DNA of 64,000 bases, taken from the NCBI GenBank assembly GCA_963716145.1, contig OY970292.1, forward strand, positions 533,171 through 597,170, in the 5' to 3' direction. The notes under the pieces are model-generated. The model saw only the letters and a list, made by a program, of their open reading frames with translations. It made no database searches and had not been told where the DNA came from. The DNA is from Candidatus Levyibacteriota bacterium. GTDB taxonomy: Bacteria; Patescibacteriota; Microgenomatia; Levybacterales; UBA12049. The position numbers and the translations under genes were made by a program. Shown here in pieces: positions 32,732-54,873 of the stretch; the stretch's first letter is position 1; each line of letters starts with the position of its first letter.

Positions 32732-33400
32732 TTATAGTATTGGTCTTCTTCTCTCTCTTTCCATTCTTCTTCGCACTTCTTCTCCTTCACCCCTACGTAA
32801 TCGTGTAACTGCTAGTCGTCCTCTCCGAACTGTGGGTATAACATCCGGTATTACAATGTCTGACAGTGTAATGGTGACTACTCTTGAATCTGACCCTCCG
32901 TTTCTTTCTGGTGAGATAGGCGATGTTTGCTCAGGAACTGCTGCTATTGCAGGTTTTACTTCCGATGGTTGGGTAACTCCTAAAGGCTTGTCTGCAATAG
33001 ATATAGTTGACATTTTTCCTCCCAAAACAACAGCTTCTGCAGGCCTCATATGCCTTTCTGCTGTAGGCTCTGGAACGGATAAATCAAGCTGTTTTGCTCG
33101 TGAAGAGGCGGCTCTTGCACGCCTTCTCCTTCTTTCCTCGCGGGCTGTTTCCCTAGCGGCGACTCTTGCACGCATTTCGGCACCCTCCATTGGGAGAACC
33201 ACTGCCGAGTTTGTTCGAACAGACGCAACGGTTTGTTTTGCGCGCCAAGCTGCTTCATCTCTAACTGAACGAGGCATAGGAGACGTAACAGTACCGCCTT
33301 CTACAGATAACCCTTGCCTTTTTCTAACCCGCGCCAGTGGCTCAATAGATGTTTCATCCGGAACGGGAACTCTTGATCTTCTTTCAACAAATAATGCCAT
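32732..33400 (-). CDS. Arg-rich low-complexity hypothetical protein
   Basis: 222-aa ORF (Arg/Ala/Glu-rich, RRRRRARAASSRAK) with AT-biased codons. The region is about 47% GC and open on both strands. Confidence 0.3.
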   Translation of the reverse strand: MALFVERRSRVPVPDETSIEPLARVRKRQGLSVEGGTVTSPMPRSVRDEAAWRAKQTVASVRTNSAVVLPMEGAEMRARVAARETAREERRRRRARAASSRAKQLDLSVPEPTAERHMRPAEAVVLGGKMSTISIADKPLGVTQPSEVKPAIAAVPEQTSPISPERNGGSDSRVVTITLSDIVIPDVIPTVRRGRLAVTRLRRGEGEEVRRRMERERRRPIL

Positions 33401-33815: not shown

Positions 33816-33998
33816 ATGAGTTCACCTGTTAAATTTTTACGAGAAACATATAGTGAGTTACGGCAGGTTATCTGGCCAACCAGAGATGAAGTTATAAGGC
33901 TTACTTTGGTCGTAATCACCATCAGCGTTCTTGTAGGACTATATATTGGAGCACTTGATTACGCATTTACTAGTTTGATGGGAATAATACTTAAGTAA
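33816..33998 (+). CDS. secE: preprotein translocase subunit SecE
   Basis: 60 aa with a single C-terminal TM and the ETYSELRQVIWPTRDEV motif. Directly upstream of nusG. Confidence 0.7.
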   Translation: MSSPVKFLRETYSELRQVIWPTRDEVIRLTLVVITISVLVGLYIGALDYAFTSLMGIILK

Positions 33999-34089: not shown

Positions 34090-34773
34090 ATGGATACAAC
34101 ACAAACAACCGATCCAAAAGAGAAAGAAGACAAGAAAGTTGAAGAAAAAGCAGAAGACGCAAAACCTGATGTTATTGATACATCCGGTATTGCAGGCGAT
34201 GCTTCGGCAGGCTCAGCACAAGGTGACAAAAAAATTGTAACTGTTCCTGATAACGCCAAGTGGTACATTCTACACACTTATGCAGGACATGAAAATAAAG
34301 TCGCGCGTTCCCTGAAGCAGAGAGCCGAGGCGATGAAGTTTGATGACAGGATTTTTGATATCATTGTCCCGACAAGAAATACCATCAAAGTCTCACAAGG
34401 CAAAAAAGAGACTATTCAGGAAAAGATCTTCCCTGGATATGTTCTGGTCCGTATGATTCTGGATGATGAATCATGGTTCATGGTAAGAAGCACTCAGGGA
34501 GTAACCAGTTTTATAGGAGCAGGAAATAAACCAACTCCTATTTCAGAAAAGGAAGTTGAGGCGATTCAGAAATTTATGAACCTTGATGAGCCTCTTTACA
34601 AAGTAGCCTTCGTGGTCGGTGAAGCAGTCAAAATCACAGACGGACCATTCGCGGAATTCCTGGGAACAATTGACAATATAGATGAAACAAGGGGAAAGTT
34701 GAAGGTGCTGGTAAGTATCTTTGGACGCGAAACACCGGTTGAATTAGACTTTTTACAGGTGAAGAAAATATAG
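34090..34773 (+). CDS. nusG: transcription termination/antitermination factor NusG (acidic N-terminal extension)
   Basis: NGN domain ([15 protein letters not shown]) and a C-terminal KOW. About 55 extra acidic residues at the N-terminus. Confidence 0.85.
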
Positions 34774-35065: not shown

Positions 35066-35488
35066 ATGGCTAAGAAAATAAAAACACTTATAAAAATCGC
35101 ACTACCAGCAGGAGGGGCAACACCAGCGCCACCTGTCGGAACGGCATTGGGTCCGCACGGACTCAATATCATGGAATTTGTTAAAGCTTACAATGACAAA
35201 ACAGCCGAGCTTAAAGGCAATGTCATTCCGGTTGTGATAACAGTATATGAAGACAGGACATTTTCCTTCATCACCAAAAAACCCCCTGTTGCTGAGATGA
35301 TCAAAAAAGCAATGAGCGTTGAAAAAGGATCCCAGAAGCCGGGACGTGAAAAAATCGGCAAACTTACTATGGATCAGGCAAGGAAAATCGCAGAGGACAA
35401 AATGGAAGATCTCAACACAACAGATGTCGAAATGGGAGCAAGAATAGTCGCCGGAACAGCAAGAAGTATGGGGATTGATGTTAATTAA
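35066..35488 (+). CDS. rplK: 50S ribosomal protein L11
   Basis: [34 protein letters not shown], the canonical L11 sequence. Confidence 0.9.
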
Positions 35489-35557
35489 AAATGAAAACTA
35501 ATAACTTATTACTTATAACTTATAACTTGTCACTGTCGCGACTGAAGGGAGCGAACC

Positions 35558-36481
35558 GTGGGTAAAATAAGAGTTAAAACAATCGGAATTGAAGAAGACG
35601 AAAAAGATCAGAAGAAAAAGGCCAAAGCCAAAGCTGAAGCCAAGCGAATTGAAGCTGCAAAAAAACTCGGGGCAGATACAAAGGCGCAAGAGAGCAAAAG
35701 CGAAGAGGCGCAAAAACTTGCAAACACTGATACCGCAGATAAGTCCGCAAAAACACACGAAAGCAGTGACAGCGTAGTTCCGCGTTCGGTTTCGCGTAGT
35801 TCCGCGGACGAGAGCGAGGCGAAGTCTGCAAAAAAGCAGAGCAAATATAAAGCCAAAACCTCCAAAAAATCAAAACCTCATTCTAGCAATTACTTAACAA
35901 TGTCCAAACTTGTAGATAAAAATAAAAAGTACACAATTGACGAGGCATTGAAAATCCTAAATTCCGCCAACAAACTTAAATTCGATGAGACAATTGAGCT
36001 ACATATAAATACCAACGAAAAAGGCGTATCAGGGAATCTCACACTCCCCCACGGCACCGGCAAAAAAGCCAAAATTGAGATAGCAGATCATGCAACTGAC
36101 CCCAAACATCTTGAAGAACTAATCAAAAAAATCGAGGGCGGAAGTATTGATTTTGACATTCTCATCGCGACCCCTGATACGATGAGTCACTTGGCAAGAG
36201 TCGCGAGATTCCTAGGACCCAAGGGCTTGATGCCAAATCCCAAAAACGGAACGATAAGTCCCAAGCCTAAAGAAGCAATTAAAAAGTTTGAAGGCGGACA
36301 GATAAATTTCAAAACAGAAGCAAAAGCTCCTATCATCCATTTGAGCGTAGGTAAGCTTTCTTTTGGTGAAAAAGATCTGAATGCCAATATCACAACTGTT
36401 CTTCAAGCAGTCCAGACAAAAAATATAAAAAATGTAACTCTTAAATCAACAATGTCACCAGGTATTAAAATTTCTATTTAA
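35558..36481 (+). CDS. rplA: 50S ribosomal protein L1 with an approximately 114-aa Lys/Ala/Glu-rich N-terminal extension
   Basis: The canonical L1 domain begins at the in-frame Met at 35900 (MSKLVDKNKKYTIDEALKIL...GLMPNPKNGT). No stop lies between 35558 and 35900. Confidence 0.8.
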   Translation: MGKIRVKTIGIEEDEKDQKKKAKAKAEAKRIEAAKKLGADTKAQESKSEEAQKLANTDTADKSAKTHESSDSVVPRSVSRSSADESEAKSAKKQSKYKAKTSKKSKPHSSNYLTMSKLVDKNKKYTIDEALKILNSANKLKFDETIELHINTNEKGVSGNLTLPHGTGKKAKIEIADHATDPKHLEELIKKIEGGSIDFDILIATPDTMSHLARVARFLGPKGLMPNPKNGTISPKPKEAIKKFEGGQINFKTEAKAPIIHLSVGKLSFGEKDLNANITTVLQAVQTKNIKNVTLKSTMSPGIKISI

Positions 36482-36540
36482 TCTCTCCAAAATCCTCCAA
36501 CTTATTGACAACTCTTAGCTTTCTACGATAGAGTATTAAT

Positions 36541-36945
36541 GTGACTAATGGTAAAAAAATTATAATTGGCGGAATTTCTATCATCGCGCTGGTTATGCTT
36601 TTTGTCATTTTCGCGCCTTCATCATGGAAATTGCAAAAAAACAAACCATCCCTCAGCCCAACCCCCAACAATTGGCAGACCAATCCTTCAATTATTCCTG
36701 AATCAATGCAAGGCAAGGTTACTGCGTCTCTTTCAGCTGAATTAAAGGAGGTAGATAATTCAAATATTACAGGCGTTACAACATTTAAAGAAATTAATGG
36801 CAAGGTTTTTGTGGGGGTCGTACTTAAAGACGCATCGGCTGATACTGAATATCCGGCATATATCCATTACGGAACCTGTACTGAGCAAAAAGGTCCAAAT
36901 ATTCCCTCAGCCCGGTTGTCAAAGGAAAAACAGACAATTATATAA
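36541..36945 (+). CDS. small secreted protein, function unknown
   Basis: N-terminal TM or signal sequence. Faint beta-sandwich, SOD-like pattern (weak, not relied on). Confidence 0.35.
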   Translation: MTNGKKIIIGGISIIALVMLFVIFAPSSWKLQKNKPSLSPTPNNWQTNPSIIPESMQGKVTASLSAELKEVDNSNITGVTTFKEINGKVFVGVVLKDASADTEYPAYIHYGTCTEQKGPNIPSARLSKEKQTII

Positions 36946-37169
36946 ATACGACAGTTGCAGAATTTAAAAAAGAATTCCCGCTCTCTGTTAAAATCCACAA
37001 ATCTTCAGATGAGCAAGACGGATTGCTCAGCTGCGCTGATCTTAAATAATTCTGCGAAACCGCGTAGGCGGAAAAGCAGAACATCATTCGTATAAATGCT
37101 TTTTTCATTGATTTCCCGCTTTTTAAAATTTTGCTATACACCTAGCCTCAACAATCTGCATTGTGATAC

Positions 37170-37198
37170 TTGACATCTTATAGGGTATTTAATATACT
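37170..37198 (+). promoter_or_regulatory. near-consensus sigma70 promoter
   Basis: TTGACA, 17 nt, TATACT. Confidence 0.4.
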
Positions 37199-37750
37199 GT
37201 GTGGGATTCTTTGGAAGGTAAAGCTGAGAGTGCTTTTTTCGCGCTTTCACCCCAACCTTTTCCTGAAGAACGAAATCGGTAACTGAGATATGAAGGTCCA
37301 AACGCTGGACCAAATCATAACTCTTTTGCACTTTAAAAAACTAGGGATGTATTTTTTGCGTCCCGTAAGGATCATGAAATACTATGGACATCATCTATTA
37401 GCAGTTAAATGCTTTCAAATTTTTGTTGCGACCCATGCTCGCTTCTTCTCTTGTCCCGCGAAGCCTTTTGGCGAAGCGGGAAATCTCTCCGGTTATTTTC
37501 CTAAACTTTAAGCACTACTGTAATTTTGCTTATTTTTATAGGATAATTTATCGGAGAATTACATTCGGGATTGACATCCTACATTGGAGATAAATTATTT
37601 GTCTCCAGCGTTGGATGTCACATCCACCTAATTAGGGCAATTCTCACGGCGACCGCCGGCCCTAGCTTCCCCTAAAGGAGAGACTCGTCCTTACGACAAG
37701 GAGAGACTTTTTCGCAGGGAAAGTATGAGAGACAGACAAGGAGCAACACC

Positions 37751-38385
37751 ATGCAACGTCCATCCATCCGCCGAGGATTCGTGGCCGCTTTGGTCGCAAT
37801 TGGGATCGGTCTTACCACCGCCCCCGCCCCGGCGCTCGCCGACAACACCGACGTCAACGCCATCGTCGCCCAGGCCCGTGCCGACGCCACCACCCGTGTG
37901 GAAGCCGCTCTCGCAGCAGCCAACGCTCGTGTCGCAACCGTCGCCGCCCCGGCCCAGGCCGCCGACAACAACATCACGGCCACCCCGGCCAGCACCACCT
38001 CGGAGGCAACCGCCACCGAGTCCACCTACCAGGCACCCGCCGACACCGGCAACGCCAACAGCGGCACCGTCGAGGTCGCACCTGACCCCGTCGTCGCTTC
38101 GGCACCCGTCGTCGTCGAGGCAGCAGCTGTCGCTGTGGAGGCGCCGCCCCCGCCCCGGCCCTTGCCGTTTCGGCGCCTGTCGCACCCCTGGACTTCAACA
38201 TCCAGAACCCTGCCCAACCGGGGCAGAGGGTGCGCTTCGTGCGTTCCGAGGACGGGTCGTTCAGCGTGATCGCCACCAACAGGACCGGTTCGAACCAGTC
38301 CGCCCGCGTGTTCGCAGACCCCGTCTCGATCGGGATCGGCGTCCGCAACGGGAGCAAGAACTTCACCGGCGTCTTCAGCAGGTAG
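37751..38385 (+). pseudogene. high-GC (about 70%) Actinobacteria-like Ala/Pro-rich secreted protein gene, frameshifted
   Basis: AAGGAG ribosome-binding site 7 nt before the ATG. Signal peptide MQRPSIRRGFVAALVAIGIGLTTAPAPALA. GCC/GAC/ACC/GTC codon usage. The frame breaks in a C-run at about 38140-38165 and continues in another frame (DFNIQNPAQPGQRVRFVRSEDGSFSVIATN...) to the TAG at 38383-38385. Confidence 0.5.
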
Positions 38386-38958
38386 TCGCTTCACCAGGTG
38401 ATGCATCAAGGAAGGTTGACGGAATTTCTGTCTCAGGCCTCGGCTTGACTCAAGAGCTCGTCAGCTCCCCGCGATGCATCGCCTTTAGCTTTTAGCTTGC
38501 AAGGATGATCGTCCTCCTCCCTAGTTGGGAACTTTTTATGTGCCTAAAAAGCGCTAGTTCCCAACAGGGAGGGTGGATTCACTGATGTGGATTTTTCCTC
38601 GTAGAGGAGACATTTTCACATTTGTGATATTTTATTTTTTACGCGTTGCGGCTAAGCTGTTTCTGAGCAATTCGCGCTCCTTTTCACCGCTTACCGCGTA
38701 CCGTTACCCTATCCACCCTCCCTACTTCTATTTTGAGCCCCAATCAGACTTGGCGAAGCCTCGTTTGACGCGGGACTTAGAATAAAAGTATTTCATTATC
38801 TCAAAAATTACTCCTAAGCTCTGATTTATAACCACCATCTACTATCAGTACTTTGTTCCCGTTTGTAATTATTCTTATTTGCTTCTTAGCTGAAGATTTT
38901 TGACGTAGAAAAAACACCTTCATTGACATATAAGCTCCCCTATTTGTATAGTTAAATT

Positions 38959-39816
38959 GTGAGCAAAAAGTTTCTTCTAAACATTCTTACTGTTTCCATT
39001 TTATTTGTATCTGGTACCTTTTTGGTCTGGGCAGCAGCTAGCCCGAATGGGTGCGGAGGTAATGGCGGTACAGCCGGAGGCGTAGGCACCAAAGGATGCG
39101 ATAGCAGCTTCACAGGTTATAAAGGCGGCAACCCAGGCTCAGCAGGAGGAGGAAATGGGAATCCCGGTGGTAATGGATCTAATTTATCTGGGGATGCTGG
39201 TCAATATGGTGCTGGTGGGGGTGGGGGTGGAGGCGGAAGTGCTGGCGTTCGCGGTGGAAATGGAGGAATTGGTGGAAATTTTAATAACTTAGACGGTTTG
39301 GAGAGCGCTTCAGGCAACGGAGGACACGGAGGCTCGGGCGGTGCCTCTACTACCAATAGCGTCAGCGGTGGTGATGGTGGAACTGGAGGATTGGGAGGCA
39401 TTCTACAAAACGATAGCAACACCGGTAGCATAGGCGGAACGGGGGGTAATGGAGGGAAGGGAGGAGATACAGGCACAAGCGGGAGCGGAGCGGGTGTTGC
39501 CGGTGGTGCTGGAGGCGCCGGGGGAAATGGAGGAAATGTGTCAAAAGATACAGGGTTTGGTGTTACTACTTGGGGTAAGGGAGGAACTGGTGGCGTTGGG
39601 GGAAATGGAGGCGCTGGAGGCGATGCAAATGTGTCTGGGAACGGTGGTAATGGTGGTATAGGGGGAAAAGGAGGAAATGGTGGGAACGGAAAGACAAGTG
39701 GAGTTGGCTCCAACGGTGGGGTGGGGGGAAGTGGAGGAGATAGTTTTAGAGGGATTGGAGGAAACGGAGGAACCGGTGGAAATGGTGGCACTGGCTCAAC
39801 TGCAGGTACCCGGTAG
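38959..39816 (+). CDS. N-terminal segment of a giant surface protein: signal peptide plus Gly-rich (GGNGG/GGAGG) repeats
   Basis: TM or signal sequence MSKKFLLNILTVSILFVSGTFLVWA, then about 260 aa of GGxGG repeats. The Gly tract continues in other frames to about 40600. Confidence 0.5.
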   Translation: MSKKFLLNILTVSILFVSGTFLVWAAASPNGCGGNGGTAGGVGTKGCDSSFTGYKGGNPGSAGGGNGNPGGNGSNLSGDAGQYGAGGGGGGGGSAGVRGGNGGIGGNFNNLDGLESASGNGGHGGSGGASTTNSVSGGDGGTGGLGGILQNDSNTGSIGGTGGNGGKGGDTGTSGSGAGVAGGAGGAGGNGGNVSKDTGFGVTTWGKGGTGGVGGNGGAGGDANVSGNGGNGGIGGKGGNGGNGKTSGVGSNGGVGGSGGDSFRGIGGNGGTGGNGGTGSTAGTR

Positions 39817-40640
39817 CCCTGGCGGTGCCGGAGGAGAAGGTTGCGGTGGGCCCGGAGCAGTTGGTTCTCCCGCCTCAGGAAGTACCGGCGGTGCCGGAGG
39901 AGCTGGAGGACCAGTGTGTCTAAGCGGTGGTGCAGGTGGCACGGGTGGTATAAATGGCGGTGCCAGGAGGAGCTGGAGGACCAAAAAACGGCGCTGCCGG
40001 TGGCGCGGGTGGTACAGCCGGTGGAGGCGGTGGAGGCACGGGTCAACTTATAATTATGGGCGGAGGAGGTTCTACAAATTATGCTTATGGAGGAGGAGGT
40101 GGTGGAGGAGGCGCAGGGTACCAATGGTCTAGCTGGCGGTAAGGGTGGAAATGGTGGAGGTATGATAGTAGGTGGAGGAAGTTCTCTCAATTATATGGCA
40201 ACCGGGTCGGGTGGAGATGGAGGAGATGGAGGACATAATTCCAATGGTCCCGGTGGCAAAGGTGGAGACGGCGGGAGTGGTGGAGGTATAATAGGAGGTG
40301 GAGGAGGTTCTGTAAATCATGTATATCGTGGAGATGGGGGTAATGGCGGAAAAGGCGGGAACGGCACAGCCGGTCAGCCGGGTGGTGCTGGAGGAAATGG
40401 TGGATTTAGAAGTGGATACATTGTCGGCGGTGGAGGTAGCTCAAACTATTTTCATGTGGATGGAACTGATGGTGTAGGTGGTGCGGGAGGTGCTGGGTGC
40501 GGTGGCTTTGGTCAGCCTGCATCAGGCTCAACAGGTGGGGCTGGTGGCCCAGGATGCGAGGCGACCAACAGCAGCTTGCAGCAGCGGAAATGTCACCTGG
40601 AGTTGGACCGCCAGTACGAGTAGTCCCTCAACCCCAAATG
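39817..40640 (+). pseudogene. Gly-repeat region of the same gene, broken by at least 3 single-nt frameshifts
   Basis: Gly-rich translation hops between frames, for example ggtgccGgaggagct versus ggtgccAggaggagct at about 39965. The motif SPASGSTGGAGG(A)GGP(V)C recurs. Confidence 0.45.
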
Positions 40641-42265
40641 CACGACTTCAAGTTTTTGATAGCGCTGGAACAACTCTGTTATATGACAGTAACTCTGCTA
40701 TTGGTTCACCAAGAACCACCATTGGATTACCAGGAACTACCTTTAAAGGTCAAGTTAGCTACAACGGAACCAATCTTTACTCCGCACAAACCACTATTAC
40801 TTGCGCCGCAACACCAACATACTCCCTAACAGGCAGTATTTTTATCGATAGCAATGGAAATAATCTGAAAGATCCCGGAGAAAACCCTTACAATAGCTCC
40901 CAATTAAATGTCAGATTACGCAGTGGAGGCTCTACCTGGGATCAGGGCAACACTCCCGCTAACTATAATTATACCGGCCGTTCAGCCGGCGCGTATACCT
41001 TTGAGTTTTTATCGGCTATTCCGGCAGGATACACGCTGGGTCACCCCCCTGGTCCTCCATACCAGTATTCAGTTACTCTAGGTGCGGGATGCACGGCAAG
41101 CCCGCTGCCTCCCGGCAGTCCTGCCATCTGTGACGGATCAAATAACATAGTTGGTCTTAACTTTCCTCTTCAGGTTGTAGTCAGTCGTGTAACCACCACA
41201 ACTCTTTCTTCCTCACTCAATCCATCAACTGTCGGGCAAAATGTCACATTTACTTCAAATGTCAGTGGGGCTTGCGGGCCTACAGGAAATGTAGAATTTC
41301 TTGATGGGGCAGCAGTTATGGCAACAAGAGCATTGGCCGGAGCAACAGCCACATACTCAACTACCACCTTAACTGTCGGAAGTCACAATATTACGGCACG
41401 ATATACTGGCAATGCAGCTTGTGATCCAAGCACTTCCCCGGTTGTGGTCCAAACAATAAATCCCCCACCAAATCAAGCACCTACCATAAGCAACGCGACT
41501 ATTTCGCCCAAACCAATAACCGCAAATGGTTCAACACAATACGCAATAACCCTCACAGCAACCGACCCGAATGGCGGAAATGATATTGGAGCAGAATACA
41601 CAATCATCAACTATCAGGGCCCAAACGCAGGAGCTGGAAACTACCGAGGATATCTTGGATGGTCCACTCTGGGAGCTTCTCCGCCTCCTTATTCTTATCC
41701 CTACTGGACCTCTTCCATTTCTCCAAAACCCTGCGCGCCAGGTGGTGGCCAAGCGGCTGTCAATACCAGCGATGGCGCCACATGGGGACATCAATACATT
41801 AATTTGATAAGCTGTTCTACCGCAGTCGCGGGCAACATCAGGACAGTAACTTTTATTGTGACATTTAATAGTAACTTTACTGCGCCTACTAACAACAATA
41901 CTCTTTCCGGATATGTCCGGGATTGGGGAGGATTGGAAGATACTCCTATTATGAAACCATTTGACACGTTCAATTTGGCGCCGCCTGCAACTTACACAAT
42001 TTCAGGCAGTGTTTTTACTGATATAAGCGGAAATAAGATTAAAGATGGCAGTGAAATAGACTATCCAAGCTCTCCGGGCATAACAAAAAGCCCTGCCGGC
42101 GGAACTGTTACCAATAATGCAAACGGAACTTATAGCATTACTGGATTGTCTGCCGGAACTTACACTGTCTCCTATGGATCTGTCCCCGCAGGATACAATA
42201 TTGTTCATCCCCAAACAGGTCCGCCTCCCCAATTCTCAGTTACGGTTGGCCCGGATGCAGCGTGA
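40560..42265 (+). CDS. central part of the giant surface protein: SdrD-B / Cna-B-like and bacterial Ig-like (Big_3-like) domains
   Basis: Two SGS(I/V)F(I/T)D.NGN.IKD.GE motifs. Ig-like pattern TTTLSSSLNPSTVGQNVTFTSNVSG...GSHNITARYTGNAACDPSTS. The frame ends at the TGA at 42263. Confidence 0.55.
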
Positions 42266-43215
42266 ACCCCACTCCCCCAACAGCGGCCATAGCCTGTGAT
42301 GCTTCGCAAAACATTTCCGGCCTTAACTTCGCGATCAGTAATTCGTCTCCTTGGATACAGGGCTATGACTTGGATATGCGCTTTGATTATGGCTTTAATG
42401 ATGCTATCCCAGGCGGGACTCCATATACTCCCTACGCCTCAGTATTTGACACTTTTAGCAATACTCCTGGAGTTATTTTTTCAGGAGATAGCTCTTACAG
42501 CTTTGGATCGGGCCAAGCATCAATTACTAGGAGTGTTGTTGGGGGCACAACCTATCCTGAAGTTTTTAACTTCCCATCAGGCAACCCTCTGCACACAAGT
42601 TATGGATACTTATCAGGCAATGCCGCGAGTGCCGGAATAACTCCCAGAGATATGGCAGGAAATGATACTTCGGGAAATTCGGTCTGCAGCGGCGGCGGCA
42701 TTGGTAATTGCACTATCCATCCGAATTTACTAAAAGGTGTTTACGGCGCAAATGGAAATGTAAAAATAAACACATCTTCTCTAAAGGCTGCCAGCAATTA
42801 TATTTTCCTCATAAACGGAACTCTAACTATAAATGGAAATATAACTATTCCTACAACCTCAACAGCTCTTTTTACATCAAGCAGCAACATCATAATTGAC
42901 AAGTCCGTTGGAGCAGCAAGTAATTCATTCCCCCGTCCCACGGGACAATTGCAGGGATTCTATAGCGCTGACAATTCTTTTACTATCCAGGGAAACAATA
43001 ATTGCTCTCTCGGAATTGATAAAATGTTAAACATTGAAGGTTCTGTAGTTGTGAATGCCAACGGCACGGGAGGATCTGTTGTGAATCAGCGCAATCTTTG
43101 CGGTGATAATGCCACTATTCCTTCTCTTACGATCGCTCCCCGTCTTGATTTTATTCTCAATGCTCCATCATTTCTGATGGTACCTGATGTTATCTCCAAT
43201 GAAGTCGCACCATAG
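42262..43215 (+). CDS. C-terminal part of the giant surface protein (beta-helix-like repeats)
   Basis: Starts by repeating the PxxPxAAIACDxSxNIxGLNF motif seen upstream. Separated from the previous segment by a -1 frame shift. Confidence 0.45.
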   Translation: MNPTPPTAAIACDASQNISGLNFAISNSSPWIQGYDLDMRFDYGFNDAIPGGTPYTPYASVFDTFSNTPGVIFSGDSSYSFGSGQASITRSVVGGTTYPEVFNFPSGNPLHTSYGYLSGNAASAGITPRDMAGNDTSGNSVCSGGGIGNCTIHPNLLKGVYGANGNVKINTSSLKAASNYIFLINGTLTINGNITIPTTSTALFTSSSNIIIDKSVGAASNSFPRPTGQLQGFYSADNSFTIQGNNNCSLGIDKMLNIEGSVVVNANGTGGSVVNQRNLCGDNATIPSLTIAPRLDFILNAPSFLMVPDVISNEVAP

Positions 43216-43272: not shown

Positions 43273-43446
43273 TCTTAAATCTTAAATCCCCCAACGTTCC
43301 TCTTTACAATACCTAACTCCCCTGTTATAATCTTCTTATCCTAAGAAATGGTCCTGCAAAGCAGAATTCGAAAGAATCTAGCAGCAGATAAAACATCAAA
43401 GCAGAATCATAAAGTATTCTTCTTTGAAGAACCCATGGAGGATCAT

Positions 43447-43992
43447 ATGCAAGACACATCAACTAAAGTCAGTTCAAACCGCCTCAAAAAAGAAGCTGTT
43501 GTTACAGAACTTTTGCAAAAGGTTGAAAAGGCGCAAGGATTGGTTTTTACAAACTACCAGGGCCTCACACATCAGCAAATCGAATCGCTCAAAAAAGCGC
43601 TAAAGTCGCTTGATGCTGAATATGTAAATACCAAGAACACTCTACTGCTCAGAGCCCTCAAAGATAAGCTTGACACTGAGGCGGAAAAAGATAAATTTCA
43701 GCAGCCTACAGCTACTCTTTTTATGTACAATGACATAGTTGAGCCTCTTAAGCAGCTTGCCAAAACACTTAAAGAGCTAGGTCTTCCAACAATCAAGTTC
43801 GGATTCCTGGAAGGAAAAGTTATGACTGATCAGGAAGTTGTAAAAATCTCCACTCTCCCTCCCCTTCCCGTACTTCGCGCTCAATTACTTGGCAATATGA
43901 AAGGGCCTATTTCAGGGCTGCACATAGCACTGTCGTGGAATATCAATAAACTTGTACTTACATTGAGGGCAATCGAAACTAAAAGGGGATAA
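43447..43992 (+). CDS. rplJ: 50S ribosomal protein L10
   Basis: L10 pattern (KAQGLVFTNYQGLT...LKDKL...). The start is moved to an internal ATG; the track ORF starts at 43348. Confidence 0.8.
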   Translation: MQDTSTKVSSNRLKKEAVVTELLQKVEKAQGLVFTNYQGLTHQQIESLKKALKSLDAEYVNTKNTLLLRALKDKLDTEAEKDKFQQPTATLFMYNDIVEPLKQLAKTLKELGLPTIKFGFLEGKVMTDQEVVKISTLPPLPVLRAQLLGNMKGPISGLHIALSWNINKLVLTLRAIETKRG

Positions 43993-44112
43993 TTGTCCAT
44001 TTTCCAGGCTTCATTTTCCATTGATTGATCAATTTACAAATTTTTTCAATCGAAAATAAATGGACAATGGCAAATGATAAATGGAAGATTACCTACTGGA
44101 AGGAGGTGTATT

Positions 44113-44505
44113 ATGGCAAAAATGAATAAAGACGATTTAATGAAATCAATCGAAGAGATGACGGTTCTTGAACTTTCAGATCTGGTTAAAGCACTTGAAG
44201 AAAAATTCGGAGTTTCAGCAGCAGCAATGGCTGTAGCAGCACCGGCCGCAGGAGCCGCTCCAGCAGGAGACAGCGCACCAGCTGAGGAGCAAACAGTCTT
44301 CAACGTTGTAATTGCGCAGTCAGGAGCACAAAAAATCGCTGTTATTAAAGCACTTCGTGAATTAGTCCCAACTCTTGGGCTTAAAGATGCGAAAGATTTA
44401 GTTGACGCAGCTCCAAAAGAAATAATGAACGGCGTAAACAAAAAAACAGCTGATGAGGCAAAAGAAAAGTTAACAGCAGCAGGCGCTACTGTTGAGTTAA
44501 AATAA
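44113..44505 (+). CDS. rplL: 50S ribosomal protein L7/L12
   Basis: [34 protein letters not shown]...AAGATVELK. Perfect AGGAGGTG ribosome-binding site. Confidence 0.9.
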
Positions 44506-44509
44506 CACT

Positions 44510-44563
44510 AAATAGTATCTAGTATCTGCACTTTTTGAAGTCTCATGCTAGATACTATTTTTG
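44510..44563 (+). terminator. rho-independent terminator after rplL
   Basis: 13-bp inverted repeat aaatagtatctag/ctagatactattt followed by TTTTT. Confidence 0.55.
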
Positions 44564-44580
44564 CGAATGCTTGTTTTATT

Positions 44581-45660
44581 ATGAAAAGACCTAAAAACCT
44601 AAGAATCCCAGGGCCCACAACGCTTTATCCTCAAGTCAGGAAAAAGATGGGCGAACCGGCGTTTAACCACCGTGGTCCGGAGTTTGAAGAAATAATTATT
44701 CAAGCCACCAAAAAACTGCAGGAAGTCTTTCATACCAAAGAAGATGTACTTATTCTGACTACTTCGGGAACCGGCGGACTTGAAGCTGCTATCGTAAACA
44801 CTCTCTCCCCCGGAGACAAAGTGATTGCTGTTTCTATCGGCACATTTGGAGACCGTTTCTCACAAATTGCTGCGTCTTATGGCGCAAATCTTATCGACCT
44901 TGCTTACGCATACGGTACAGCTGCAAATCCGGATGATATCCAAAAAATATTAAAAGCAAACCCTGACGCAAAAGCAATCCTCATAACTCATAACGAAACA
45001 TCAACCGGCGTGACAAATGATCTGAAAACAATCGCAAAAATTGTCAAGGATAATTCCAAAGCTCTTCTTATTGTTGACGGCGTCAGTAGTGTCGCGGCAA
45101 TACCTCTGCGGACTGATGATTGGGGATGTGATATTGTAATTACAGCTTCACAAAAAGGCTTCGGCACGCCGCCCGGAATTGCGATGATCAGCATGAATAA
45201 AAGAGCGTGGATTGCTTATGAAACATCAAAGATGCCAAAATTTTACCTTGATTTAGGTAAGGCCAAAAAATCGCTTGCCAATAAGCAAACCCCCTTCACT
45301 CCGGCAACTCATCAAATTGACGCACTCAATACCGGCCTTACTATTATGCTCAAAGAGACTCTTCCCGTAATTATCAAAAGGCATTCCAATGCAACCAAAA
45401 AAATAAGAAAAGCAGTCAGAGAAATGGGGCTCGAGCTTCTGGCAGACGATAAACATGCCTCAACTGTCCTGACCTCCGTAAAAACAGACCGAGCTTCAGA
45501 AATTGTAAAAGCTATGCGTACAAAAGGAATAGAAATTGCAGGCGGTTATGGTCCTTTAAGCGGAAAAGTTTTCCGCATCGGCCACCTCGGCTTTTTCACC
45601 GAAGCGGAAATTGATGAAACCTTGAAAGCTCTAAAAGTGTGTATAGCGGGCCTCAAATAA
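44581..45660 (+). CDS. class-V PLP-dependent aminotransferase (serine-pyruvate / alanine-glyoxylate family)
   Basis: TTSGTGGLEAAIVN...DGVSSVAAIP...SQKGFGTPPG with the PLP lysine. The start is moved past the terminator hairpin. Confidence 0.7.
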   Translation: MKRPKNLRIPGPTTLYPQVRKKMGEPAFNHRGPEFEEIIIQATKKLQEVFHTKEDVLILTTSGTGGLEAAIVNTLSPGDKVIAVSIGTFGDRFSQIAASYGANLIDLAYAYGTAANPDDIQKILKANPDAKAILITHNETSTGVTNDLKTIAKIVKDNSKALLIVDGVSSVAAIPLRTDDWGCDIVITASQKGFGTPPGIAMISMNKRAWIAYETSKMPKFYLDLGKAKKSLANKQTPFTPATHQIDALNTGLTIMLKETLPVIIKRHSNATKKIRKAVREMGLELLADDKHASTVLTSVKTDRASEIVKAMRTKGIEIAGGYGPLSGKVFRIGHLGFFTEAEIDETLKALKVCIAGLK

Positions 45661-45665
45661 AATCT

Positions 45666-46379
45666 TTATGCAGCCGCAGGCATAGGCACAAGATAATCTG
45701 TATTAAATGTTGTCCAATACCATCCCCCATCATAACCGCCCAAACCGCTCCTGAGCACTTGTTCATCAAGTTCGGCAGCTTCTCTACGATTTAAGCCCCG
45801 GACATTTCTATATACTCTTTGTGCATCTCTCCTCCACCCATCTGGAGGATTAATTGGAAAAACAACGCGGAATTGAGTATCGGGCGGATTAGTATATTTA
45901 AGCGTATTAAGAGATGCTAAGTCATCGGGCATATATCCGGAAAATGAAAGCCAAAATTTAGGACCATTTTCATCACCAGGTAGTTTTAACTCTAGATATT
46001 TTTGTCCCACAGCTGCCTCTCCATCTATATTAGTTTCTCCAGGATAACTACTAACAACTCTATTGACAACCAAAGGACCAACAAGCGCAAATGATGGCTC
46101 TTTCCTCTTTTTGTCATTTGGAGGGTAATCAAAAGTGACATTCAATTCTGGTGGCAAAACAGCTTCAATCTCCGCAGCTGTTCTCATTTTTAGAGGATTA
46201 ACAGGAGCAAGAATATCTCTTAGGTTTTGTCGTGGTTGTGATGCTCCCGCATTTCCTTCAGCGCTCAATCCGGAACCACCTATAGCTCTCCTATTCGAAA
46301 GCGCAATGGCACCACCAATTGTAACTGCGCCACGTATTAATAACTCTCTTCGACTTAAGTCCCCCTCTTGACCACGCAT
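45666..46379 (-). CDS. Tat-signal hypothetical secreted protein
   Basis: Twin-arginine N-terminus MRGQEGDLSRRELLIRGAVTIGGAIAL. Slightly elevated GC. Confidence 0.45.
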   Translation of the reverse strand: MRGQEGDLSRRELLIRGAVTIGGAIALSNRRAIGGSGLSAEGNAGASQPRQNLRDILAPVNPLKMRTAAEIEAVLPPELNVTFDYPPNDKKRKEPSFALVGPLVVNRVVSSYPGETNIDGEAAVGQKYLELKLPGDENGPKFWLSFSGYMPDDLASLNTLKYTNPPDTQFRVVFPINPPDGWRRDAQRVYRNVRGLNRREAAELDEQVLRSGLGGYDGGWYWTTFNTDYLVPMPAAA

Positions 46380-46516
46380 ACTAAATGATTATGAAAAAAA
46401 TCGTTTAAGATGTCAAGATTTAATAATCTTCCCTCTTGACAAAAGGTGTACTAGTTTGTTACTTTAGAGATAGCTCTGAATCATAAGAATAGTACATTAG
46501 TATAGTTAACACTAGT

Positions 46517-46726
46517 ATGAATAATCAAAAGCTATCAATAGATAACCTTCCAGATCTACTTACAGTCCGTGAAGTTGCTGAAGTTCTCCGTGTCTCCCCT
46601 CTTACTATCAAAAGATGGGGTAAAAGAGGAAAGCTTCCGGCAATAAGAATAAACTCACGAGGAGATAGAAGATACAAAAAAGAAGCAGTCCTCTGGCTCC
46701 TCGGCATCCAACCAAAAACTGAATAA
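46517..46726 (+). CDS. excisionase-family / MerR-like helix-turn-helix DNA-binding protein
   Basis: LLTVREVAEVLRVSPLTIKRWGKRGKLPAIRI..GDRRYKKEAV. Confidence 0.6.
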   Translation: MNNQKLSIDNLPDLLTVREVAEVLRVSPLTIKRWGKRGKLPAIRINSRGDRRYKKEAVLWLLGIQPKTE

Positions 46727-46741
46727 AGTCCTCCTATTTAC

Positions 46742-48196
46742 ATGATGACTCATGAATTTGCCAGAAGACATGCCCCTCAAGAACCTCACGACTCGGAGAC
46801 ACTGAGGAAAAAAACCTTCCATATCGAGTCAGGAAATCGACTGCGTGGAGAAGTTAATCCCGGAGGATCAAAAAATGGAGCTATTCCTATCATGTGGGCA
46901 GCTACGCTCTGCAATACTCCTTCAACTATTAGAGGATTGCCTGCGCTTGGAGATACCACAATAAACATGAAGTTGCTCAGGGCATTTGGCGTAAATGTAA
47001 TCCCAGACGGAGATGTTACAACCATCGACCCGCAAAATGTCACAACCGGAACTGCCATAAGAAAAAATATCGAATCTTCAAGAAATAGTATTCTGACAGT
47101 TGGAGCTATGTTAGGGCGTCTCGGGCATGTTACCATCCCTCACCCAGGCGGTGATGCACTGGGACCCAGACCAATTGATTATCACATAAAAGTAATGGAG
47201 GCCCTAGGAGCAAAATTCAAAGAAGATGCTGACGGCATGCAGTTTGAAGCGCTTGATGGATTAAAAGGAGGCTATTATAAATTCCCCCAACCTAGCCATT
47301 TGGGAACAATAAACGGCTTGCTTGCGGCAGTAAATGCAGACGGCTCAACCACGCTTAAAAACTGCGCATTAGAACCTGAAGTTGAAGAATTTATCGATTT
47401 TTTGACAAAGGCAGGAGCAAGAATTAAAAGAGATGGTTTGGACCCCCGAACTATCTTGATTGAGGGAGTACGCGAATTGAATGGTGTTGAGGATTTTGAA
47501 ATATTGCCCGATAGAAATGCGATAGTTACCTACGCAGTTGCTGCTATAGCTACCGAATCTGAGGAAGGAGTCACTGTAAAAGGAGCGAAAAAGGTGCATT
47601 TGAAATCATTTCTATCTTTGCTTGATGAAATGGGAGGCGGATACAAAATTCCAGATGACGAGAACGAGGACTGGATAAGATTTTTCTATAAAGGAGAATT
47701 GACTGCACCAAAACGCACTATAGTAACTTGCCCGTATCCCAATGACCAATTTGGTAATGAAAATTACCTTGGCATAATGACTGACTGGCAGCCGCTTGTA
47801 AGCTTATTACTCTTAAAAGCAAAAGGTACTTCAAGAATTATCGAAGCAGTACATCCTGATCGGTTCCAACACTTAAATAGTGCTTCTTCTGCAGGAGCAA
47901 ATATAGAATTTTTTGATCCAAAAATAGAAGATCCTGAATTGGGGTACTTTTTTAGAGATGAATTCGACAAAAAAAATCACGGAGCGGTCATTACCGGTGG
48001 AACGCTTTTCAGTAAGGAAATTCCAACCTCTGAAAGTGATGATGTAAGGCTAAGCGCGTTTAATATGATTGCGGGACTTTCGCTGACCCAACCGGGAGTA
48101 ACCACTATCATGCACAGCCCGCTGCACCTGGAAAGAGGCTATGAAGATCTTACTGGAAAACTCCAATCTCTCGGCGCTAATATTTTAGCGGCTTAA
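46742..48196 (+). CDS. murA: UDP-N-acetylglucosamine 1-carboxyvinyltransferase-like enzyme (MurA/EPT family) with Asp at the fosfomycin-target position
   Basis: Aligns with E. coli MurA end to end (KNGAIPIMWAATL... HLERGYEDLTGKLQSLGANI). The active-site loop reads PGGDALGPRPIDYH where E. coli has PGGCTIGARPVDLH. Confidence 0.8.
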   Translation: MMTHEFARRHAPQEPHDSETLRKKTFHIESGNRLRGEVNPGGSKNGAIPIMWAATLCNTPSTIRGLPALGDTTINMKLLRAFGVNVIPDGDVTTIDPQNVTTGTAIRKNIESSRNSILTVGAMLGRLGHVTIPHPGGDALGPRPIDYHIKVMEALGAKFKEDADGMQFEALDGLKGGYYKFPQPSHLGTINGLLAAVNADGSTTLKNCALEPEVEEFIDFLTKAGARIKRDGLDPRTILIEGVRELNGVEDFEILPDRNAIVTYAVAAIATESEEGVTVKGAKKVHLKSFLSLLDEMGGGYKIPDDENEDWIRFFYKGELTAPKRTIVTCPYPNDQFGNENYLGIMTDWQPLVSLLLLKAKGTSRIIEAVHPDRFQHLNSASSAGANIEFFDPKIEDPELGYFFRDEFDKKNHGAVITGGTLFSKEIPTSESDDVRLSAFNMIAGLSLTQPGVTTIMHSPLHLERGYEDLTGKLQSLGANILAA

Positions 48197-48318
48197 ATAT
48201 ATAACGCCACGAAGAAAATAAAACATTAAATTACTACGTTGGGTTAAATTCGTCTTTGAAAGCTAAGGTAGGTGTACCACATTATTGAAAATGATTGCAG
48301 AGTGGTATAATTAGATTC

Positions 48319-48579
48319 ATGAATAGCGACTACATTTCTCTGATAGGTTTTGCGGCGGCGACTTTGACTACTGCCTCTTTTTTACCACAGGTGGTTCAAA
48401 CTCTGAAAACCCGTAAAACAAAAGACATTTCACTGGGTATGTATATCGCTTTCACGATTGGGATTACTCTCTGGGGAATTTACGGTTTTCTTATCGGGTC
48501 CCCACCTATTATCATCGCCAACATCATAACTTTTGTTCTGACTTGCATTATTCTATATCTCAAAATCAAACATGGCTGA
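48319..48579 (+). CDS. SemiSWEET (MtN3/PQ-loop) sugar transporter
   Basis: 86 aa, three TM segments, PQ motif (SFLPQVVQTLKTRKTKDISLGMY). TATAAT at 48305-48310 suggests a near-leaderless transcript. Confidence 0.6.
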   Translation: MNSDYISLIGFAAATLTTASFLPQVVQTLKTRKTKDISLGMYIAFTIGITLWGIYGFLIGSPPIIIANIITFVLTCIILYLKIKHG

Positions 48580-49648
48580 TGACTATCAACAAGTAAAGCA
48601 AAACTTTTTTTCAGAGCTCAAAGCCGCCTCAAACAATAAAAAAAGCAGTCTCTCATACATAAAAAATGACCTTTCTCAAAAACCTCTTGTAGAAAATGGT
48701 ATTGTTCAGGTGATAGTAGTGGGCGGGACAAATTATATTTCCTCATTAGTCAAAGTGGTAAACGGAAAAAATCAGAGTCTGAGTATTGAAAAAGGTAAGT
48801 TGCCTATCTTCAAAACACGTAAAGATTTTTCTCTATTTCTGGATAAAACTCTAAGCAAAGATGCTGAGGCTTTAGGAATCAATTTCGCCTTTCCGCTCTT
48901 GCCCACTACCGGACTTCTGGGAGCGCTTGACGGGATACTTATAAAAGTCACCAAGGAGCACAAATTTATTGGACTTATCGGAAAGCGTGTCGGGGAATTT
49001 GCCGGAAAACAGTATTTTAAAAAATATAAAAACTTTATACCCGTTACAGTTGCCAACGATACAGTCTGCCTCACTCTTTCGGACCAAGGAGAAGCGGATG
49101 GCGGAATGGTCTTGGGGACTGGATTTAACATGAGTTTGAAAACAAGCGGAAAAGCCAAAAAAACGATAATCAATTTAGAAGCCGGCAATTTTAATGGTTT
49201 TGAGATATCCGATACTCTTAAAAAAATTGATGAGATATCTGAAAAACCGGGAAATATGCTGTTTGAAAAAGCTGTTGCCGGTAAATACCTTGTGGAGGAT
49301 TTTAATGAGCAGGCAAAAGCGTTAGGGACAAACTTCGCTTTAAAAACAACCGAAGATTTGTCCCATCTTGCGAAAACAAACCATAAGGCTGAGGGTGATT
49401 TGGCGCAATCAGTTCTGAAAAGGTCAGCATTTTTTATCGCAGGGGCCCTTGCCGGAGTTTATGAATTCAGAAACCGTCCCACCAAACTTGAATTCGTTAC
49501 AGAAGGTAGTTTGTTCTGGAAAGGATATAAATATCAAGAAAATGTACAGAAACAATTAATCGGGCTAGGAGTGCCCAAAAACGCAATAAGATTTAAATAC
49601 GTAGAAGACAGCAGCCTAAAAGGCGCGGTAGGTTTATTGATTAAATAA
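48572..49648 (+). CDS. hexokinase-family sugar kinase
   Basis: VIVVGGTNYISSLV (matches LDLGGTNFRV), LGINFAFPLLPT, VTVANDTV. These follow the order of the hexokinase signature motifs. Confidence 0.55.
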   Translation: MADDYQQVKQNFFSELKAASNNKKSSLSYIKNDLSQKPLVENGIVQVIVVGGTNYISSLVKVVNGKNQSLSIEKGKLPIFKTRKDFSLFLDKTLSKDAEALGINFAFPLLPTTGLLGALDGILIKVTKEHKFIGLIGKRVGEFAGKQYFKKYKNFIPVTVANDTVCLTLSDQGEADGGMVLGTGFNMSLKTSGKAKKTIINLEAGNFNGFEISDTLKKIDEISEKPGNMLFEKAVAGKYLVEDFNEQAKALGTNFALKTTEDLSHLAKTNHKAEGDLAQSVLKRSAFFIAGALAGVYEFRNRPTKLEFVTEGSLFWKGYKYQENVQKQLIGLGVPKNAIRFKYVEDSSLKGAVGLLIK

Positions 49649-49683
49649 TTTCCAATTTTAAATTTCAAATTACAAATTTCTAA

Positions 49684-50058: not shown

Positions 50059-50133
50059 TGGGTATTTGAAATTTGAAATTATAAATTTGAAATTCCTATG
50101 CTCTCTTCCGGTACTCTGCCTGGTGTTCTTTTT

Positions 50134-54355: not shown

Positions 54356-54381
54356 CAGGAACCCACGATGGGGCTACCTAG

Positions 54382-54609: not shown

Positions 54610-54636
54610 TGCTGCTTCTCCTCTCTCAGCGCGGAT

Positions 54637-54852: not shown

Positions 54853-54873
54853 CTGTACGTTTCCTCCGTTTCG

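What the first reader, a model, noticed from the sequence alone, without database searches (positions are those of the whole stretch)
37640..38560. About 0.9 kb island of about 70% GC with a frameshifted Actinobacteria-like secreted-protein gene
GC rises from about 38% to about 70% between roughly 37.7 and 38.4 kb. Its own AAGGAG ribosome-binding site, a signal peptide, an Ala/Pro/Thr-rich sequence and GCC/GAC/ACC codons point to a high-GC donor. The ORF is broken in a C-homopolymer. Hairpins bound the island: palindromes at 37560-37640 and a 15-bp inverted repeat ctccctagttgggaac/gttcccaacagggag at 38515-38570. It is either a recent horizontal fragment in a ribosomal operon or a contaminating chimeric read.
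Basis: seen in the sequence. Interest (0 to 1): 0.75.

Follow-up and report, generated by a model that had tools for sequence, protein, structure and literature searches.

The report
Foreign high-GC secreted-protein gene islet
A real 0.84-kb stretch of about 66-74% GC DNA, carrying one small secreted-protein gene with foreign codon usage and no detectable relatives, sits between ribosomal-protein genes of a roughly 41% GC ultra-small (CPR/Microgenomates) bacterium; it is most likely an ordinary, fairly recent horizontal acquisition, and its frameshift may be only a sequencing error.

Summary
GC jumps from 0.39 to 0.66 (peak 0.745, about 6 SD above background) at 37647-38483. The segment carries AAGGAG plus ATG at 37751, a signal peptide, an Ala/Pro/Thr-rich linker and a small beta-rich C-terminus. 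Three strong hairpins flank it.

The composition is foreign. GC3 is 0.78-0.89 against 0.27-0.43 in native genes. The neighbouring Gly-rich gene is GC-rich only through its amino acids (GC3 0.35-0.39).

A separately assembled contig (Logan, run ERR11593400) spans both junctions at 99.9% identity, so a chimera is unlikely. The syntenic relative L003 has a 179-nt spacer at this site and no island.

No homologue was found in any protein, DNA, family or structure library searched. "Actinobacteria-like" therefore remains an untested guess.

The frame break lies between GAG 38138-38140 and GCC 38143. The two assemblies differ there by one base and both are out of frame. Each assembly also carries indels that break conserved genes elsewhere, so the frameshift may be technical.

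Verdict: a horizontally acquired orphan secreted-protein gene cassette, a new member of a known kind, of modest interest.

The parts
37048..38917 (.). Lineage-specific spacer between orf169 (stop codon 37045-37047) and the conserved promoter of the Gly-rich surface-protein gene. The relative L003 has only 179 nt here.
   Evidence: window 38918-38958 aligns to L003 11571-11611 at 83%; nothing else in the spacer aligns to L003
37568..37625 (.). Near-perfect palindrome or hairpin of native (AT-rich) composition, about 20 nt before the GC jump. It overlaps a promoter-like TTGACA-16-AATTAT at 37571-37598.
   Evidence: arms 24 nt, -32.6 kcal/mol, z -7.3
37647..38483 (+). The GC-rich foreign segment itself: 5' leader, ORF and first downstream hairpin.
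   Evidence: change-point (GC 0.661 against 0.39)
37738..37743 (+). Shine-Dalgarno AAGGAG, 7 nt upstream of the ATG. Two more AAGGAG copies lie in the leader, within the 11-nt direct repeat AAGGAGAGACT.
   Evidence: sequence; one search shows that most of the native genes sampled lack such a site
37751..37837 (+). Predicted signal peptide (29 codons): MQRPSIRRGFVAALVAIGIGLTTAPAPALA, with A-L-A before the predicted cleavage site. The RR-G-F-V stretch resembles a Tat motif by eye only.
   Evidence: AlphaFold2 places a helix at residues 7-22. No SignalP-type tool was available, and the TAT_signal_seq model did not hit at E<=1.
37751..38140 (+). ORF part 1 (130 codons): signal peptide, a predicted long helix (residues 33-73) and an Ala/Pro/Thr/Val-rich linker predicted as disordered.
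   Evidence: (GC1/2/3 0.72/0.62/0.78)
38141..38142 (+). Frame-break site. The window has 2 extra bases (GC) between GAG and GCC, and Logan contig L001 has 1 (G). Zero or three bases would be in frame.
38143..38385 (+). ORF part 2 (80 codons plus TAG), one base behind the first frame: AAPAPALAVSAPVAPLDFNIQNPAQPGQRVRFVRSEDGSFSVIATNRTGSNQSARVFADPVSIGIGVRNGSKNFTGVFSR. Predicted as a small five-strand beta domain.
   Evidence: (GC3 0.89)
38396..38484 (+). GC-rich hairpin 10 nt after the stop codon, ending exactly at the GC change-point. Inferred to be a terminator carried in with the gene; it has no T-tract.
   Evidence: -47.6 kcal/mol, z -5.4
38506..38581 (.). Its right arm can also pair with a 13-nt perfect complement at 38711-38723.
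   Evidence: I3, I9; -38.4 kcal/mol, z -5.6

Best explanation
The segment 37647-38483 is a genuine part of this CPR (Microgenomates, Levyibacteriota-like) chromosome. It entered by horizontal transfer from an unidentified high-GC bacterium recently enough that its codon usage has not drifted towards that of the host.

It is a self-contained single-gene cassette. It has a roughly 100-nt leader with a strong Shine-Dalgarno site. It encodes an exported protein of about 210 aa, made of a signal peptide, a helix, a disordered Ala/Pro/Thr linker and a small beta domain. A GC-rich hairpin immediately downstream probably terminates its transcript.

It landed in a spacer between orf169 and a large Gly-rich surface-protein gene. 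In this lineage that spacer already separates rplK-rplA from rplJ-rplL, and it may be tolerant to insertions because the neighbouring genes have their own promoters.

If expressed, the product would be a secreted or cell-surface protein of unknown activity. As assembled, the reading frame is broken at 38141-38142. This is either a sequencing error at a GC-rich tract, leaving the gene intact, or a real inactivating indel, making it a decaying pseudogene.

Shown: foreign composition, presence in two assemblies, absence from relatives, anatomy of the ORF, the hairpins.
Inferred: transfer, donor type, export, terminator function, expression.
For: - Composition: GC 0.661 against 0.39 with sharp boundaries; the peak is about 6 SD above background.
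- Synonymous codon choice is foreign. GC3 is 0.78/0.89 against 0.27-0.43 in seven native genes. ACC is 94% of Thr codons, GTC 68% of Val and GCC 58% of Ala, whereas native genes prefer ACA, GTT and GCA. The adjacent Gly-rich gene reaches 55-68% GC with a native GC3 of 0.35-0.39.
- Coding strand and frame: GC3 > GC1 > GC2 on the + strand, SD plus ATG, signal-peptide anatomy, and a 24-nt in-phase repeat that fixes the second frame.
- Real in the genome: Logan contig L001 spans both junctions at 99.88% identity and carries its own variants.
- Lineage-specific: L003 keeps rplA - orf164 - 179 nt - surface gene - rplJ with no island. No related locus has a 300-nt window above 0.61 GC or a tblastn match to the island protein.
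- Architecture differs from native genes, several of which start a few bases after a -10 box without an SD.
- Not an RNA: folding z-scores inside the ORF are -0.44 and -0.93, and there are no Rfam matches.
Against: - No donor homologue was found: nothing in 1.84 billion cluster representatives except a spurious tandem-repeat match, and nothing in the word-indexed 5.8-billion search. DNA-level scans of metagenome and viral contigs and of phages and plasmids also found nothing. A very recent transfer predicts a near-identical donor gene somewhere, so either the donor is unsampled or the protein is too short and low-complexity to be detected.
- No mobility signature was seen: no tRNA near the island (the four tRNAs found lie at 6.0-8.1 kb), no direct repeats and no further copy of the flanks in the window. 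No integrase-like ORF was seen among those listed for 30-46 kb, but only some of them were scanned against family models.
- The roughly 600-nt and 430-nt AT-rich flanks inside the lineage-specific spacer are unexplained.
- The ORF is out of frame in both available assemblies.
- Both assemblies may come from the same sample, so support for the junctions is independent at the assembler level only.
Confidence: 0.75

Rival explanations
1. Assembly chimera or contaminant: a fragment of a co-occurring high-GC organism was wrongly joined into the CPR contig.
For: The boundaries are abrupt. There is no homologue and no mobility signature. The window's assembly has other local errors.
Against: A different assembler (Logan, run ERR11593400) gives one 4200-bp contig with 2.5 kb of native sequence to the left and 0.86 kb to the right of the island, and with the same junctions. 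A chimera would need two wrong junctions 0.84 kb apart to be reproduced.
Confidence: 0.04
2. A contingency or recoded gene: the GC-rich tract at 38141-38160 is a phase-variable (slipped-strand) or programmed-frameshift site that switches production of the full-length secreted protein on and off.
For: The two assemblies differ by exactly one base at the break, and both are out of frame in different ways. The site lies next to GCC GCC CCC GCC CCG.
Against: The runs are short (C5 and C4), and the length difference lies in a GG/GC junction, not in a long repeat. No slippery heptamer with a downstream structure was identified. Both assemblies show similar one-base discrepancies in ordinary genes (36894, 44252, 47862), so error is the simpler reading.
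Confidence: 0.05
3. A native gene whose GC content is driven by an Ala/Pro/Thr/Gly-rich protein composition, like the neighbouring Gly-rich surface protein.
For: The neighbouring gene reaches 0.55-0.68 GC from GGN codons alone. L002 also carries Ala/Pro/Thr-rich secreted ORFs at about 50% GC.
Against: Third-position GC is 0.78-0.89 and synonymous codon choice is the opposite of native. The gene is absent from the syntenic relative.
Confidence: 0.03
4. A mobile gene cassette (integron-like or another hairpin-bounded element) inserted by site-specific recombination at the flanking palindromes.
For: The unit is one ORF followed by imperfect palindromes. The second hairpin contains GGGAAC...GTTCCC, which loosely recalls the AAC/GTT cores of attC sites.
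Against: By inspection of the sequence, the cores do not fit RYYYAAC/GTTRRRY. There is no integrase gene in the spacer, no direct repeats and no second copy of either hairpin in 64 kb. The cassette also has a long leader with its own SD.
Confidence: 0.05
5. A structured non-coding RNA that stands out by its GC content in an AT-rich genome.
For: GC islands in AT-rich genomes often mark RNA genes.
Against: There is clear three-base periodicity with GC3 highest. Folding energy is no better than for shuffled sequence (z -0.44 and -0.93). Rfam gives no match even at E<=1.
Confidence: 0.02

Closest known systems
Compositionally atypical, horizontally acquired genes or 'genomic islets' (the alien-gene and amelioration concept of Lawrence and Ochman; cited from general knowledge)
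   Same: Sharp GC discontinuity, foreign synonymous codon usage, absence from the syntenic site of a relative, a single accessory gene encoding an exported protein.
   Different: No donor homologue, no tRNA, integrase or direct-repeat signature, and an extreme contrast (GC3 about 0.85 against about 0.36) in a reduced CPR genome.
Ala/Pro-rich secreted proteins of high-GC Gram-positive bacteria, for example the mycobacterial Apa/ModD type (general knowledge, a lead only)
   Same: Signal peptide ending in AxA, long Ala/Pro/Thr low-complexity region, NNC codon bias, strong AAGGAG ribosome-binding site.
   Different: No sequence, family or structure match to any of them. GCG and ACG codons are rare (6% each), which is not typical of Streptomyces or Mycobacterium. 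Membership is not shown.
Gene exchange between CPR episymbionts and their hosts, for example Saccharibacteria living on Actinomycetota (general knowledge)
   Same: A CPR genome that carries a gene whose composition suggests a high-GC bacterial source.
   Different: The host of this Levyibacteriota-like organism is unknown, and no donor sequence links the island to any taxon.
Integron gene cassettes (ORF plus attC hairpin)
   Same: One promoter-poor ORF followed by imperfect palindromes.
   Different: The attC core motifs are not met, no integron integrase is nearby, and there is a long 5' leader with its own SD.

Membership tests
Horizontally acquired genomic islet | Base composition significantly different from the host genome, with discrete boundaries | tested here: met
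   GC 0.661 against 0.39, peak about 6 SD above background, boundaries 37647 and 38483
Horizontally acquired genomic islet | Synonymous codon usage different from host genes and not explained by amino-acid content | tested here: met
   GC3 0.78-0.89 against 0.27-0.43; the Gly-rich neighbour serves as an internal control (GC3 0.35-0.39)
Horizontally acquired genomic islet | Absent from the orthologous site of related genomes | tested here: met
   L003 has a 179-nt spacer and the other relatives have no island. The nearest relatives share only 66-77% rplA identity, so timing is coarse.
Horizontally acquired genomic islet | Identifiable homologue in a plausible donor lineage | tested here: not met
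   no homologue anywhere
Horizontally acquired genomic islet | Mobility signature (tRNA target, integrase or transposase, flanking direct repeats) | tested here: not met
   no tRNA near the island (the four found lie at 6.0-8.1 kb), no convincing direct repeats at the boundaries, no other copy of the flanks. No mobility gene lies in the spacer, and other ORFs of the window were not scanned systematically.
Sec/Tat-exported protein | N-terminal signal peptide (positive n-region, hydrophobic h-region, AxA cleavage site) | tested here: inconclusive
   Seen by inspection, and a helix is predicted at residues 7-22. No signal-peptide predictor was available. The TAT_signal_seq model gave no hit at E<=1.
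   There are no homologues at all, so the label rests on composition only.
Assembly chimera | Junctions unsupported outside the one assembly | tested here: not met
   Logan contig L001 spans both junctions. Read-level support is not testable with these tools.
Pseudogene (real frameshift) | Frame-disrupting indel confirmed by accurate sequence | tested here: inconclusive
   both assemblies are out of frame but disagree by 1 nt at the site; each assembly has indels that break conserved genes which are intact in the other.
Integron gene cassette | attC site with RYYYAAC ... GTTRRRY cores, and an integron integrase with attI nearby | tested here: not met
   The hairpin arms read GTTGGGAAC ... GTTCCCAAC, which do not fit the cores. 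No integrase-like ORF was seen in 30-46 kb.
Structured non-coding RNA | Folding stability or covariation above background, or a match to a known family | tested here: not met

The most novel reading that the evidence does not exclude
The islet is a gene captured from the still-unknown high-GC host or neighbour of this episymbiotic Levyibacteriota-like bacterium. It would encode a previously unseen family of secreted proteins, with production toggled between strains by length changes at the GC-rich tract at 38141-38160. If so, it would give both a clue to the host's identity and an example of a contingency locus in a CPR genome.
Probability: 0.07. Interest if true: 0.6.

Novelty: new member of a known kind. 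Interest (0 to 1): 0.3.

Why it matters
CPR bacteria have small, streamlined genomes, and for most lineages, including Levyibacteriota, the partners are unknown. An unameliorated gene of about 85% GC3 in a genome of about 36% GC3 is a clean marker of recent DNA uptake from a very different organism. If a donor were ever identified, it could point to the physical partner of this bacterium.

The case is also a practical caution. Gene callers picked the antisense ORF in this island. As a result the real product is missing from protein databases, so such islets are easy to overlook or to dismiss as contamination.

Beyond that it is an ordinary accessory gene of unknown function.

Tried and rejected
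- Homology of the reconstituted 210-aa protein. Nothing was found in Pfam, NCBIfam or PHROGs, in the word-indexed search of 5.8 billion proteins, or in PDB sequences (P-II proteins at E 0.13, treated as noise). tblastn against phages and plasmids and blastn against plasmids also gave nothing. The exhaustive phmmer search of 1.84 billion representatives gave only a 16-fold tandem-repeat artefact, P0001.
- The join I used for the query (…VEAPPPPALAV…) differs by about 4 linker residues from the phase-exact join (…VE-AAPAPALAV…). This should not affect the searches.
- Antisense proxy search. Because the gene caller picked the minus-strand ORF on L001, I searched that product in case relatives were stored as antisense translations. 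None were found.
- DNA-level search for relatives regardless of gene calls in metagenome and viral contigs: none.
- Structure. Single-sequence AlphaFold2 gave pLDDT 55. Foldseek against the PDB gave nothing below E 0.3. Neither is informative.
- ncRNA reading: rejected.
- Amino-acid-driven GC: rejected on GC3.
- Integron attC reading of the hairpins: the cores do not fit.
- Exact look-ups of the island ORF, rplJ and rplK found no further contigs.
- Literature searches for the run accession and for Levyibacteria gave nothing usable.
- Alignment of the AT-rich flanks (37048-37646 and 38484-38917) to the window and to all fetched loci: only the last 41 nt, the promoter of the surface gene, is conserved with L003.

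Full report
**1. Context**

The window is about 41% GC. Around the finding it carries these features:
- secE (33816-33998), nusG (34090-34773), rplK (35066-35488)
- rplA (35558-36481, with a Lys/Glu-rich N-terminal extension)
- a small membrane-anchored ORF, here called orf169 (from 36541)
- the GC island
- a large Gly-rich, Ig-domain surface-protein gene (38959-43215)
- rplJ (43348-43992) and rplL (to 44505)

The closest species representatives of rplA are MAGs labelled Candidatus Levyibacteriota or Saccharimonadales, at 66-69% identity. The organism is therefore a CPR/Microgenomates-type bacterium.

**2.

- GC in 200-nt windows rises to 0.725-0.745. Background is 0.408 with SD 0.055, so the peak is about 6 SD above it.
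- A two-state change-point fit gives 37647-38483, with GC 0.661 against 0.39.
- AAGGAG (37738-37743) lies 7 nt before ATG 37751. The product begins MQRPSIRRGFVAALVAIGIGLTTAPAPALA|DNT, which has the anatomy of a signal peptide, and continues Ala/Pro/Thr/Val-rich.

**3. Coding strand and frame**

- On the + strand, GC1/GC2/GC3 is 0.72/0.62/0.78 for 37751-38149 and 0.59/0.54/0.89 for 38143-38385, one base behind the first frame. This is the usual pattern of a high-GC coding sequence.
- A 24-nt repeat (37818-37841 and 38144-38167, 22/24 identical) encodes TAPAPALA and AAPAPALA in the same codon phase. The second frame is therefore already in force at 38143.
- The first frame is in force through GAG 38138-38140. 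The break is the two bases 38141-38142.
- Automatic gene calling on the Logan contig chose the antisense ORF instead. That ORF has neither an SD, a signal peptide nor the expected GC3 pattern.

**4. The composition is foreign, not driven by amino acids**

- Seven native genes have GC3 of 0.27-0.43.
- The neighbouring Gly-rich gene reaches up to 0.68 GC yet has GC3 of 0.35-0.39.
- The island has GC3 of 0.78-0.89. It uses ACC for 94% of Thr, GTC for 68% of Val and GCC for 58% of Ala. Native genes prefer ACA/ACT, GTT and GCA.
- The native genes sampled mostly lack an SD, and several start a few bases after a -10 box. The island's leader-plus-SD architecture is therefore also atypical for this genome.

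**5. Not a chimera**

- An exact-product look-up of rplA returned Logan contig L001 (run ERR11593400, 4200 bp). It aligns to window 35144-39344 at 99.88% identity, across both junctions.
- It differs from the window at five positions: indels at 36894, 37359 and 38142, and substitutions at 37364-37365. It is therefore not the same consensus sequence.
- Two assemblers reproducing two wrong junctions 0.84 kb apart is very unlikely.

**6. Lineage-specific insertion**

- L003 (Levyibacteriota, 66% rplA identity) keeps the order rplA - orf164 - surface gene - rplJ - rplL. It has only 179 nt between orf164 and the surface gene, which there is a single 963-aa ORF.
- Only the last 41 nt before the surface gene align between the two genomes.
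- Window 37048-38917 is therefore lineage-specific, and the GC-rich part is its core.
- No related locus from genomes or metagenomes has a comparable GC peak or a tblastn match to the island protein.

**7. No relatives anywhere**

- Family libraries gave nothing: Pfam, NCBIfam and PHROGs.
- Protein searches gave nothing real. The 5.8-billion word-indexed search found none. The exhaustive search of 1.84 billion representatives found only a tandem-repeat artefact. The antisense-proxy search found none.
- DNA-level scans of metagenome and viral contigs gave nothing. Neither did phage and plasmid searches by blastn or tblastn.
- PDB sequences gave nothing usable.
- A single-sequence AlphaFold2 model is weak (pLDDT 55). 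It shows a helix at residues 33-73, disorder at about 74-150 and five strands at 159-209. It has no meaningful structural neighbour.
- The Actinobacteria label therefore rests on composition alone. The rarity of GCG and ACG codons (6% each) is not typical of Streptomyces or Mycobacterium (general knowledge).

**8. The frameshift cannot be trusted**

- At the break the window reads GAG-GC-GCC and L001 reads GAG-G-GCC. Both are out of frame and they differ by one base.
- The window breaks orf169 at 36894. L001 has a full-length ORF there that aligns end to end with the L003 homologue.
- Another Logan contig from the same run (L023, window 43354-50142, 99.91% identity) has an extra base that truncates rplL, and lacks a base so that aroA is truncated. 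Both genes are intact in the window.
- The window's surface gene changes frame five times relative to the intact L003 homologue.
- Both assemblies therefore carry roughly 0.5 one-base indel discrepancies per kb. A GC-rich tract on which they disagree is a likely site of systematic error.
- I rate an intact gene with an artefactual break and a real pseudogene as about equally likely. Phase variation or recoding is a small remainder.

**9. Alternatives rejected**

- Structured RNA: folding z-scores of -0.44 and -0.93, and no Rfam match.
- Amino-acid-driven GC: rejected by the GC3 result.
- Integron-like cassette: the hairpin cores do not fit attC, there is no integrase nearby and no other copies of the hairpins.

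**10. Mechanistic reading**

- The segment looks like a single-gene cassette taken up from a high-GC bacterium into an insertion-tolerant spacer.
- It could be transcribed from a promoter-like site in the upstream palindrome (TTGACA-16-AATTAT, 37571-37598) or from a stronger one at 37170-37198.
- It would be translated from its own SD and exported through its signal peptide.
- Transcription would probably end at the GC-rich hairpin at 38396-38484.
- All of these functional steps are inferred, not shown.

**11. Verdict**

This is a genuine, lineage-specific, horizontally acquired orphan gene for a secreted protein in a CPR genome. The chimera alternative is disfavoured. Donor identity and frameshift status remain open. 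It is a new member of a known kind, of modest interest.

Noticed in passing
window 38959-43215: The Gly-rich (GGxGG repeats), Ig-like-domain surface-protein gene changes reading frame five times in the window, near 39810, 39961, 40118, 40570 and 42262. Its homologue in L003 (11612-14503) is a single 963-aa ORF. This is either a burst of assembly indels in GC-rich repeats or a decaying gene. The window's version is also about 1.4 kb longer.
   Followed up: partly
window 36894 (orf169, 36541-37047): A one-base deletion (CCC to CC) relative to Logan contig L001 truncates a conserved small membrane-anchored protein. The L001 version aligns end to end with the L003 homologue (44% identity).
   Followed up: yes
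L023 (window 43354-50142), differences at window 44252 and 47862: The Logan contig from run ERR11593400 has one-base indels that truncate rplL (called as 70 aa) and the EPSP synthase gene (377 aa). Both are intact in the window. The two assemblies therefore each carry about 0.5 indel discrepancies per kb, and neither can serve as the reference.
   Followed up: partly
window 35558-36481 (rplA): Ribosomal protein L1 carries an N-terminal extension of about 130 aa rich in Lys, Glu and Ala. The extension is conserved in the related MAGs L002 and L003.
   Followed up: no
window 36505-36541, 38923-38959, and upstream of 31733 and 32685 (minus strand): Several native genes start 6-10 nt after a good -10 box and have no Shine-Dalgarno site. 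This suggests widespread leaderless mRNAs in this genome. Only rplA, rplL and the foreign island gene show a clear SD among those inspected.
   Followed up: partly
window 53900-55250: A second, milder GC-rich patch (0.54-0.59) holds only small ORFs, mostly on the minus strand: 54047-54355, 54382-54609, 54637-54852 (with a CxxC...CxxC tail) and short hydrophobic peptides. One has GC3 of 0.64. It may be another foreign or mobile remnant. No Rfam match.
   Followed up: partly
window 45666-46379 (minus strand) and 55936-57453 (plus strand): Two proteins with native codon usage have twin-arginine-like signal sequences (SRRELLIRGAV..., SRRRFLEGAGALVA...; TAT_signal_seq E 0.0097 for the second). This is unexpected for a reduced CPR genome. 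Presence of tatA and tatC was not checked.
   Followed up: no
L002 17962-20278 (minus strand): The related MAG carries three adjacent Ala/Pro/Thr/Arg-rich ORFs that look secreted or lipoprotein-like, at about 45-52% GC in a 39% GC genome. Moderately GC-rich accessory secreted proteins may recur in this lineage.
   Followed up: no
window 38566-38578 and 38711-38723: A perfect 13-nt inverted repeat (AGGGAGGGTGGAT / ATCCACCCTCCCT) overlaps the right arm of the second hairpin. This allows two mutually exclusive pairings upstream of the surface-protein gene. Its function is unknown.
   Followed up: no
window 32732-33400: Long overlapping ORFs lie on both strands (222 aa on the minus strand, 203 aa on the plus strand) in a stretch of about 0.55 GC just upstream of secE. 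They have low GC3 (0.28) and no family match. What this stretch encodes is unclear.
   Followed up: no
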